This document shows, piece by piece, positions 46,560 through 46,981 of a stretch of DNA of 64,000 bases. This stretch comes from Escherichia coli (GTDB taxonomy: Bacteria; Pseudomonadota; Gammaproteobacteria; Enterobacterales; Enterobacteriaceae), in NCBI RefSeq assembly GCF_036507355.1, contig NZ_AP027877.1, one strand, 5' to 3'. The position numbers were made by a program, and so were the translations under genes. The notes beneath the pieces are model-generated. The model did not search any database. It had not been told where the DNA came from and saw only the letters and a program-made list of their open reading frames with translations. The first letter of the stretch is position 1. Every line of letters begins with the position of its first letter.

Positions 46560-46981
46560 CTAAAGTCTCCAAAAAATTATTATCGGCAATGTCGAAACTT
46601 GCCGTTATATCTGCCACCGGAACGGGGTAACAGAGTTTATGTTTTACCAGGGCGACCGTATCCTGCCGGAAGCGCTGGTTATTCACAATCGATTTAACAC
46701 ACCATTTACATTAAATTTTAGCGCTCAGCGACACTATTTTTCATCAGGTTGCACTCTCTCACATTTTTTGCGGTTGCACCTTTCAAAAATGTTAACTGCC
46801 GCAGAGAAAAAGTCTGAGTTATTTTTTTAATCCCTGTCATATCGATTTCTTTTATTAACATTTCATTCATTTTTAAGCTTGCTACGCAGGTCACATTTAA
46901 CATGGTTGCACAAAGTTGCAACATCATGGATATTTCACGATAACGTTAAGTTGCACCTTTCAGAACAACAGGAGTAATGGC
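46560..46981. promoter_or_regulatory. put divergent control region with repeated GTTGCA PutA operator motifs
   Basis: At least five GTTGCA copies (about 46748, 46773, 46905, 46915, 46950) in an AT-rich region between putP and putA. Confidence 0.75.

What the first reader, a model, noticed from the sequence alone, without database searches (positions are those of the whole stretch)
46560..46981. put control region with at least five GTTGCA PutA operators
Repeated GTTGCA motifs, several paired (GTTGCACAAAGTTGCA), lie between divergent putP and putA, consistent with PutA autorepression. This confirms the annotation but is not novel.
Basis: partly seen in the sequence, partly recalled or inferred. 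Interest (0 to 1): 0.15.

Follow-up and report, generated by a model that had tools for sequence, protein, structure and literature searches.

The report
Known PutA operators of E. coli put region
This is the well-studied control region between the E. coli proline-utilisation genes putP and putA, carrying the five GTTGCA sites where the PutA enzyme-repressor binds; it is real, strongly conserved and already described, so it is ordinary.

Summary
Window 46560-46981 is exactly the 422-bp spacer between putP (45051-46559, -) and putA (46982-50944, +) of E. coli. It carries five exact GTTGCA hexamers at 46748, 46773, 46905, 46915 and 46950, all on the putA sense strand. About 0.23 are expected by chance (P about 2e-7). 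A sixth, minus-strand hit is only the palindrome GTTGCAAC at 46915. Only one pair is adjacent (46905/46915), so 'several paired' overstates it.

The window's PutA N-terminus is identical to the crystallised ribbon-helix-helix DNA-binding domain. The K-12 spacer has the same five sites. Held papers state that PutA binds only this spacer genome-wide.

New here, from 78 Enterobacteriaceae species:
- Four sites are invariant in sequence, orientation and spacing: O1 and O2 are 25 bp apart, O3 and O4 are 10 bp apart.
- The fifth site, O5, nearest putA, exists only in E. coli, two unnamed Escherichia isolates and E. whittamii.

Verdict: already known, low interest.

The parts
46560..46981 (.). put control region: the 422-bp spacer between divergent putP and putA
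   Evidence: ORF list and sequence; NCBIfam identification of both genes; present in 5420 of 5426 E. coli genomes
46748..46753 (+). PutA operator O1 (GTTGCA); the invariant block is AGGTTGCACT, 46746-46755
   Evidence: Exact match; 100% conserved in 79 distinct spacers; 25 bp from O2 in 77 of 78 species
46773..46778 (+). PutA operator O2 (GTTGCA); the invariant block is GTTGCACC, 46773-46780. The 21-mer 46767-46787 matches my recollection of the DNA crystallised in PDB 2RBF.
   Evidence: The 2RBF protein chain is identical to the window's PutA 1-52. The DNA sequence of 2RBF is recalled, not checked.
46905..46910 (+). PutA operator O3; its TTGCAC (46906-46911) doubles as the candidate -35 hexamer of the putA promoter
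   Evidence: part of the invariant 21-bp block 46904-46924. The promoter assignment is inferred from a 17-bp spacing to the conserved GATATT.
46915..46922 (+). PutA operator O4, a perfect 8-bp palindrome GTTGCAAC, 10 bp from O3, lying in the spacer of the candidate putA promoter
46950..46955 (+). PutA operator O5, 32 bp before the putA ATG. It shares the 13-mer GTTGCACCTTTCA with O2. It is confined to E. coli, two unnamed Escherichia isolates and E. whittamii.
   Evidence: mean conservation 0.31; present only in L002-L006 of 78 species; the 13-mer is unique to O2 and O5 in the window
46929..46934 (+). Candidate putA -10 hexamer GATATT, giving an inferred transcription start near 46941
   Evidence: Conserved run in the cross-species alignment. 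Not found by the stricter consensus scan. Inference only.
46982..50944 (+). putA: trifunctional repressor / proline dehydrogenase / P5C dehydrogenase. Residues 1-52 form the ribbon-helix-helix DNA-binding domain.
45051..46559 (-). putP, the sodium/proline symporter. Published transcription starts at -137, -95 and -13 map to about 46696, 46654 and 46572.
   Evidence: start positions from PMC2760140, mapped by me
46718..46744 (-). ymdG (b4737 in K-12), an 8-codon small ORF on the putP strand whose ATG is 4 bp from O1. Here it encodes MKNSVAER; in K-12, MKNSVAEH.
   Evidence: K-12 annotation; mapping and translation; PMC6001520, bioRxiv 10.1101/511675 and PMC7815308
46683..46712 (-). Conserved block with three TGTWAA-like direct repeats at 11, 11 and 12 bp spacing around the putP P1 start. 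Probably the ArcA-P site footprinted at putP P1.
   Evidence: Conservation. PMC3798270 describes DR1-DR2 protected and a DR3 with 12-bp spacing at putP. The coordinate assignment is my inference.

Best explanation
The region is the E. coli put control region, and the five GTTGCA hexamers are the operators of PutA.

How it works. When proline is scarce, PutA has oxidised FAD and stays in the cytoplasm. Its N-terminal ribbon-helix-helix dimer binds these sites and represses both divergent genes. When proline is present, it reduces the FAD, PutA moves to the membrane to work as an enzyme, the operators empty and putA and putP are transcribed.

Placement of the sites (inferred):
- O3 and O4 overlap the -35 hexamer and the spacer of the putA promoter, so they would exclude RNA polymerase.
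- O5 lies just downstream of the inferred putA start, where it could add a roadblock.
- O1 and O2 lie 52-82 bp upstream of the putP P1 start and immediately upstream of the ymdG start codon. At putP they more likely block an upstream promoter or an activator/alpha-CTD contact than occlude the P1 core promoter.

What is shown here: presence, enrichment, orientation and deep conservation of the sites, identity of the repressor domain, and identity to the K-12 sites.
What is taken from the literature: binding, repression and the redox switch.
What is inferred: the promoter overlaps.
For: Motif presence and enrichment. Gene identities. RHH domain identical to 2GPE and 2RBF. The five sites are identical in K-12.

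Across 78 species, O1-O4 are exact, all in the putA-sense orientation, with 25-bp and 10-bp spacings. They form the main 100%-conserved islands in an alignment averaging 66% identity to the window. The background rate in flanking coding DNA is 0.45 per kb.

Literature: PutA binds only the putA/putP spacer by gSELEX and represses in the absence of proline (PMC8249747). The functional switch is described in PMC5293562. EMSA with the 420-bp put control DNA gave Kd 45-58 nM.

The conserved GATATT lies 17 bp after the TTGCAC of O3. putP transcription starts are given in PMC2760140.
Against: Nothing contradicts the assignment, but there are limits.
- The paper that mapped the five operators could not be read here. 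The operator numbering, the split of three sites for putA and two for putP, and the 9-bp contact are from memory.
- The simple sigma-70 scan did not call a putA promoter, so the overlap of O3/O4 with -35 and the spacer is inferred.
- O5 is not conserved outside E. coli and its closest relatives, so it cannot be essential to the mechanism in other enterobacteria.
- O1 and O2 do not overlap the published putP P1, P4 or P5 core promoters, so how they repress putP is not explained by simple occlusion.
Confidence: 0.95

Rival explanations
1. The hexamer cluster is a chance feature of an AT-rich spacer and has no function.
For: GTTGCA is short and occurs 41 times in the 64-kb window, slightly below the shuffle expectation.
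Against: There are 6 hits where 0.23 are expected (P about 2e-7), and all ten top-ranked 423-bp windows in the sliding count overlap this spacer. Four sites are invariant in 78 species while the surrounding sequence diverges.
Confidence: 0.01
2. The conserved GTTGCA blocks are kept by protein-coding constraint from the minus-strand ORF that crosses them (the 69-aa ORF at 46718-46927, annotated 'hypothetical protein' by PGAP, or the 40-aa form of YmdG), not by repressor binding.
For: PGAP annotates a hypothetical protein over the operators in most E. coli genomes. A 40-aa YmdG spanning O1 and O2 was detected after SPA tagging (PMC6001520).
Against: The homologous 69-aa frame is intact in 0 of 78 other spacers, including another E. 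coli. Ribosome profiling re-annotated YmdG to 8 codons, which lie outside the operators. Even those 8 codons are not conserved beyond Escherichia, whereas the operators are. No Pfam family matches.
Confidence: 0.01
3. The hexamers are mainly promoter elements (TTGCAC and TTGCAA resemble the -35 consensus TTGACA) or sites for another regulator such as CRP or ArcA, with PutA binding secondary.
For: TTGCAC of O3 sits 17 bp upstream of the conserved GATATT. CRP-like matches overlap O1 (46748-46763, 3 mismatches) and lie at 46880-46895 (2 mismatches). ArcA-P footprints at putP P1.
Against: Five same-oriented copies with conserved 9-10 bp blocks cannot all be -35 boxes. CRP-like matches are not above chance in the window (205 against 225 expected). 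ArcA repeats are TGTTAA-type and lie elsewhere. gSELEX and EMSA show PutA binding to this DNA. A dual role for O3, as operator and -35, is compatible with the main explanation.
Confidence: 0.03

Closest known systems
E. coli K-12 put control region with five PutA operators (Zhou et al. 2008, J Mol Biol 381:174; PDB 2RBF, PutA52 bound to operator 2)
   Same: Same locus. The spacer is 422 bp in both, with 3 SNPs, none in a site, and the same five GTTGCA positions and orientation. The PutA RHH domain is identical.
   Different: Essentially nothing. The window comes from a non-K-12 lineage: it is 1 SNP from O157:H7-type spacers, and a 447-aa hypothetical gene lies beyond putP, as in O157:H7. One SNP changes the last residue of YmdG from H to R.
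put control regions of other Enterobacteriaceae (Salmonella, Citrobacter, Klebsiella, Enterobacter and others)
   Same: Divergent putP-putA arrangement. O1-O2 are 25 bp apart and O3-O4 are 10 bp apart, all in the same orientation. The GATATT and the Shine-Dalgarno sequence are conserved.
   Different: They lack O5. About 52 of 78 species have only four exact sites. Others have a different fifth hexamer: inverted 35 bp before O4, direct 37 bp before O4, or inverted 24 bp after O4.
Other ribbon-helix-helix repressors (Arc, MetJ, CopG, Mnt, NikR)
   Same: A beta-ribbon dimer reads a short, partly palindromic site, and multiple sites lie in the regulated promoter.
   Different: Those usually bind as dimers of dimers on inverted or tandem repeats. 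PutA is described as functioning as a dimer on single sites (PMC2777438). Its signal is relocation to the membrane after flavin reduction, not a co-repressor.

Membership tests
PutA operator set of the enterobacterial put control region | Lies in the spacer between divergently transcribed putP and putA | tested here: met
   putP 45051-46559 (-) and putA 46982-50944 (+); NCBIfam equivalogs well above cut-off
PutA operator set of the enterobacterial put control region | Multiple copies of the GTTGCA core, above chance | tested here: met
   Five exact copies where 0.09 are expected on that strand
PutA operator set of the enterobacterial put control region | The cognate PutA carries the N-terminal ribbon-helix-helix DNA-binding domain (type C, trifunctional) | tested here: met
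   1320-aa PutA matches the trifunctional equivalog NF008772 over its full length. Residues 1-52 are identical to 2GPE and 2RBF.
PutA operator set of the enterobacterial put control region | Same sequence as the K-12 sites on which binding was demonstrated | tested here: met
   All five hexamers and their conserved flanks are identical to NC_000913.3 1078883-1079304. That binding was mapped to these five sites is from Zhou et al. 2008, recalled and not read here.
PutA operator set of the enterobacterial put control region | Evolutionary conservation expected of functional operators | tested here: met
   O1-O4 are invariant in 77-78 of 78 species. O5 is conserved only in E. coli, two unnamed Escherichia isolates and E. 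whittamii.
PutA operator set of the enterobacterial put control region | Direct PutA binding and proline-relieved repression at these sites in this strain | not testable with these tools
   Needs EMSA or footprinting and reporter assays. Held literature reports them for K-12 DNA.

The most novel reading that the evidence does not exclude
The ancestral enterobacterial PutA operator set is 2 + 2 (O1-O2 and O3-O4). O5 is a recent gain in E. coli and its closest relatives that copies O2's extended 13-bp sequence (GTTGCACCTTTCA). It adds a site downstream of the putA transcription start and so tightens autorepression. Separately, O1 and O2 sit in or just upstream of the leader of the ymdG mini-ORF transcript, so PutA may control putP partly through an unmapped upstream promoter or a uORF-containing leader rather than through the mapped P1, P4 and P5 promoters.
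Probability: 0.3. Interest if true: 0.3.

Novelty: already known. Interest (0 to 1): 0.1.

Why it matters
It matters little beyond confirming the annotation. PutA autoregulation through GTTGCA operators is a textbook example of a 'trigger enzyme' whose cellular location sets gene expression. The comparative result adds modest detail that could guide operator-mutant design: a strictly conserved 2 + 2 operator core, a fifth site that turns over between lineages, and O1 abutting the ymdG mini-ORF. It does not open a new question.

Tried and rejected
1. Retrieving the primary operator paper and related reviews failed. None is held: Zhou 2008 (PMC2665032 / PMID 18586269), PMC2664619, PMC3715380, PMC2666929, PMC2242416, PMC5650515, PMC1390768, PMC207177 and PMC4285992. 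Full-text searches for GTTGCA together with PutA found nothing relevant.

2. The sigma-70 consensus scan found no putA promoter. It found one weak minus-strand candidate (ATGAAA-18-TAAAAT, 46744-46715) in a poorly conserved stretch, no more than shuffles give.

3. The CRP consensus scan gave 4 weak matches in the spacer, but the window as a whole is at or below chance. It is not used as evidence.

4. The 69-aa ORF as a real gene is rejected.

5. RNA folds of the putA leader plus early ORF and of the putP leader around the published 3' ends gave z-scores of +0.22 and -0.50, so there is no structural signal.

6. The TSS supplements of PMC2760140 have no putA entry, so the putA start remains inferred.

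7. The expected gain did not justify the cost for a known system.

Full report
**Observation**

The stretch 46560-46981 is exactly the 422-bp spacer between two divergent ORFs. One is 45051-46559 on the minus strand. The other begins at the ATG at 46982 on the plus strand; I first misplaced this by one base, which exposed.

An exact scan finds GTTGCA on the plus strand at 46748, 46773, 46905, 46915 and 46950. One minus-strand hit at 46917 is only the reverse reading of the palindrome GTTGCAAC at 46915-46922.

- Across the 64-kb window the hexamer is not over-represented: 41 hits against a shuffle mean of 53.
- In the spacer there are 6 hits where 0.23 are expected (P = 1.8e-7). On the plus strand alone there are 5 against 0.086 expected (P = 3.8e-8).
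- In the sliding 423-bp count, all ten top-ranked windows (6 hits each) overlap this spacer. Only 1 of 20,000 first-order Markov simulations of the spacer reached 6.

The wording 'several paired' overstates it: only 46905/46915 form the GTTGCACAAAGTTGCA pair. 'At least five' is exactly five.

**What the locus is**

- The plus-strand protein matches the NCBIfam equivalog for trifunctional PutA over its full length (2654 bits, cut-off 1750). The minus-strand protein matches PutP (1143 bits, cut-off 955).
- The spacer occurs in 5420 of 5426 complete E. coli genomes, at 99% identity or more in 5330.
- It differs by one base (46722) from O157:H7-type genomes and by three bases (46722, 46889, 46962) from K-12 MG1655. 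None of these lies in a hexamer, and K-12 has the same five sites.
- PutA residues 1-52 are identical to PDB chains 2GPE and 2RBF, the PutA ribbon-helix-helix domain.

**What is known**

Papers I could read state the following.
- By genomic SELEX, PutA binds only this spacer in the E. coli genome.
- PutA binds the 420-bp put control DNA with a Kd of about 45-58 nM (PMC5293562).
- Proline reduction of the flavin drives PutA to the membrane, the 'functional switch'.

All of them cite Zhou et al. 2008 (J Mol Biol 381:174) for the operators. That paper is not held here. The following details therefore come from my memory of it and are not tool-verified:
- five operators, each containing GTTGCA;
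- three needed for putA repression and two for putP;
- a 9-bp contact in the crystal structure with operator 2;
- flanking bases tuning affinity through Lys9.

The window's layout fits that description: three sites lie next to putA and two towards putP. The 21-mer at 46767-46787 (TTTGCGGTTGCACCTTTCAAA) matches the operator-2 DNA as I recall it.

**Independent test by comparison**

One scan of the species-representative genome collection with PutA residues 1-200 returned 80 loci from distinct Enterobacteriaceae, at 86-100% identity. In 78 of them I could delimit a divergent putP-putA spacer of 356-556 bp.
- Every one carries the O1-O2 pair. The spacing is 25 bp, or 26 bp in one species.
- Every one carries the O3-O4 pair at 10 bp, as exact GTTGCA in the putA-sense orientation. 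The single exception is E. whittamii, which lacks an exact O3.
- The background rate in the flanking coding DNA is 0.45 per kb on both strands.

In a MAFFT alignment of 79 distinct spacers, mean identity to the window is 0.66. Runs of at least 6 bases with at least 95% identity are:
- AGGTTGCACT (46746-46755, O1)
- GTTGCACC (46773-46780, O2)
- GGTTGCACAAAGTTGCAACAT (46904-46924, O3 and O4)
- four short blocks: CCGGAACG (46617-46624), TTTAACAC (46693-46700), TGTTAA (46790-46795) and GATATT (46929-46934)

The O2-to-O3 distance varies from 130 to 136 bp. That is more than half a helical turn, which argues against a phase-locked loop between the two clusters and for separate control of the two promoters.

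**O5 is different**

Its columns average 0.31 identity. An exact site is present only in E. coli, two unnamed Escherichia isolates (E1V33, MOD1-EC7003) and E. whittamii (L002-L006). E. albertii, Salmonella, Citrobacter, Klebsiella, Enterobacter and the rest have unrelated sequence there, although the adjacent GATATT and the Shine-Dalgarno sequence are kept.

O5 shares the 13-mer GTTGCACCTTTCA with O2, and that 13-mer occurs nowhere else in the window. This suggests either a copy of O2 or selection for the same extended recognition sequence.

About 52 species have only four exact sites. Others have a different fifth hexamer:
- inverted, 35 bp before O4 (Kluyvera and allies, 7; Salmonella, 2; E. 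albertii);
- direct, 37 bp before O4 (4 species);
- inverted, 24 bp after O4 (5 species).

A caution applies. The inverted site 35 bp before O4 coincides with the left half of a conserved CRP-like match in the window (46880-46895, TGCTACGCAGGTCACA). It may therefore not be a PutA site at all.

**Mechanism, with its basis**

- From the literature: the PutA RHH dimer occupies the operators when proline is low. Proline reduces FAD, PutA relocates to the membrane, and repression is lifted.
- Inferred for putA: TTGCAC of O3 (46906-46911) lies 17 bp before the conserved GATATT (46929-46934). This makes the most plausible putA promoter, with a start near 46941. O3 and O4 then cover the -35 hexamer and the spacer, and O5 lies at about +9 to +15. 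The strict consensus scan did not call this promoter.
- Inferred for putP: published starts at -137, -95 and -13 (PMC2760140) map to about 46696, 46654 and 46572. O1 and O2 therefore sit 52-82 bp upstream of P1, not over a mapped core promoter.

K-12 annotates ymdG (b4737) inside the spacer. It maps to window 46744 to 46718 on the minus strand, with its ATG 4 bp from O1.
- YmdG was detected by chromosomal SPA tagging as a 40-aa ORF (PMC6001520). In that form it would read through O1 and O2.
- Ribosome profiling later re-annotated it to 8 codons (bioRxiv 10.1101/511675).
- It is listed as a candidate uORF of putP, with an RNA 3' end 45 nt before the putP ATG (PMC7815308). That end maps to window 46604.

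All the putP starts I could map lie downstream of ymdG. A further leftward promoter must therefore exist within or upstream of the O1-O2 interval, which would give O1 and O2 a direct target. This is inference.

The 8 codons are not conserved beyond Escherichia. The 69-aa ORF that PGAP calls a 'hypothetical protein' is the same frame extended by lineage-specific SNPs, and it is intact in 0 of 78 other spacers. Coding constraint therefore cannot explain the conservation of the operators.

**Verdict**

The finding is correct and its interpretation is supported. It describes a system already characterised biochemically and structurally in E. coli K-12, so it rates as already known and of low interest. 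The modest additions here are the strictly conserved 2 + 2 operator core across Enterobacteriaceae, the restriction of O5 to E. coli and its closest relatives, and the position of O1 next to ymdG.

Noticed in passing
window 46718-46744 (-): The small-protein gene ymdG (8 codons; first reported as 40 aa, which would be 46718-46840) lies inside the put spacer, with its ATG 4 bp from operator O1. All the putP transcription starts I could map lie downstream of it, so an unmapped leftward promoter near O1/O2 is implied. In this window the last residue is R rather than the H of K-12 and O157.
   Followed up: partly
window 46718-46927 (-): A 69-aa ORF across operators O1-O4 is annotated 'hypothetical protein' (WP_000979516.1) by PGAP in most E. 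coli genomes. It is the ymdG frame extended upstream, has no Pfam match and is intact in 0 of 78 other species' spacers. It is very probably a spurious gene call.
   Followed up: yes
window 46950-46962 and 46773-46785: O5 and O2 share the 13-mer GTTGCACCTTTCA, which is unique to these two places in the 64-kb window. O5 exists only in E. coli, two unnamed Escherichia isolates and E. whittamii, which suggests a recent copy of O2 or convergent selection on the flanking bases.
   Followed up: partly
window 46694, 46790, 46855, 46897 (TGTTAA/TTAACA); block 46683-46712: The ArcA-type half-site TGTTAA occurs four times in the spacer and 47 times in the rest of the window, where about 0.3 would be expected in the spacer. 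Two copies are 100% conserved across genera. The block 46683-46712 has three repeats at 11, 11 and 12 bp spacing, matching the published description of the ArcA-P footprint at putP P1.
   Followed up: partly
L047 (K. oxytoca), L062 and L067 (Raoultella terrigena; Enterobacter sp. 10-1), L072, L051; between O4 and the putA ATG: Several species carry insertions of about 50 to 134 bp between the O3-O4 pair and the putA start codon, which lengthen the leader. The nature of the inserted DNA was not examined.
   Followed up: no
L082 (E. coli EC22, NZ_CM169479.1): An IS1 element abuts the spacer. putP and the spacer up to about window 46830 are deleted, so O1 and O2 are lost, while O3-O5 and putA remain. 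pgaB is truncated on the other side.
   Followed up: partly
window 43559-44902 (+): A 447-aa ORF lies between putP and efeU and is annotated 'hypothetical protein' in O157:H7 (WP_001247490.1). It has no NCBIfam match and only a sub-threshold Pfam hit to the PipB2 N-terminal effector domain (17.8 bits, cut-off 27).
   Followed up: partly
window about 47010 (+) and about 46604 (-): Published Term-seq RNA 3' ends map 28 nt inside the putA ORF, next to the CCATGG...CCATGG inverted repeat at 46981-47001, and 45 nt upstream of the putP ATG. RNA folds of both segments are no more stable than shuffles (z = +0.22 and -0.50).
   Followed up: partly
summary: Seven of the 5428 matches to the put spacer in complete E. 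coli assemblies lie on records labelled as plasmids. They were not inspected.
   Followed up: no
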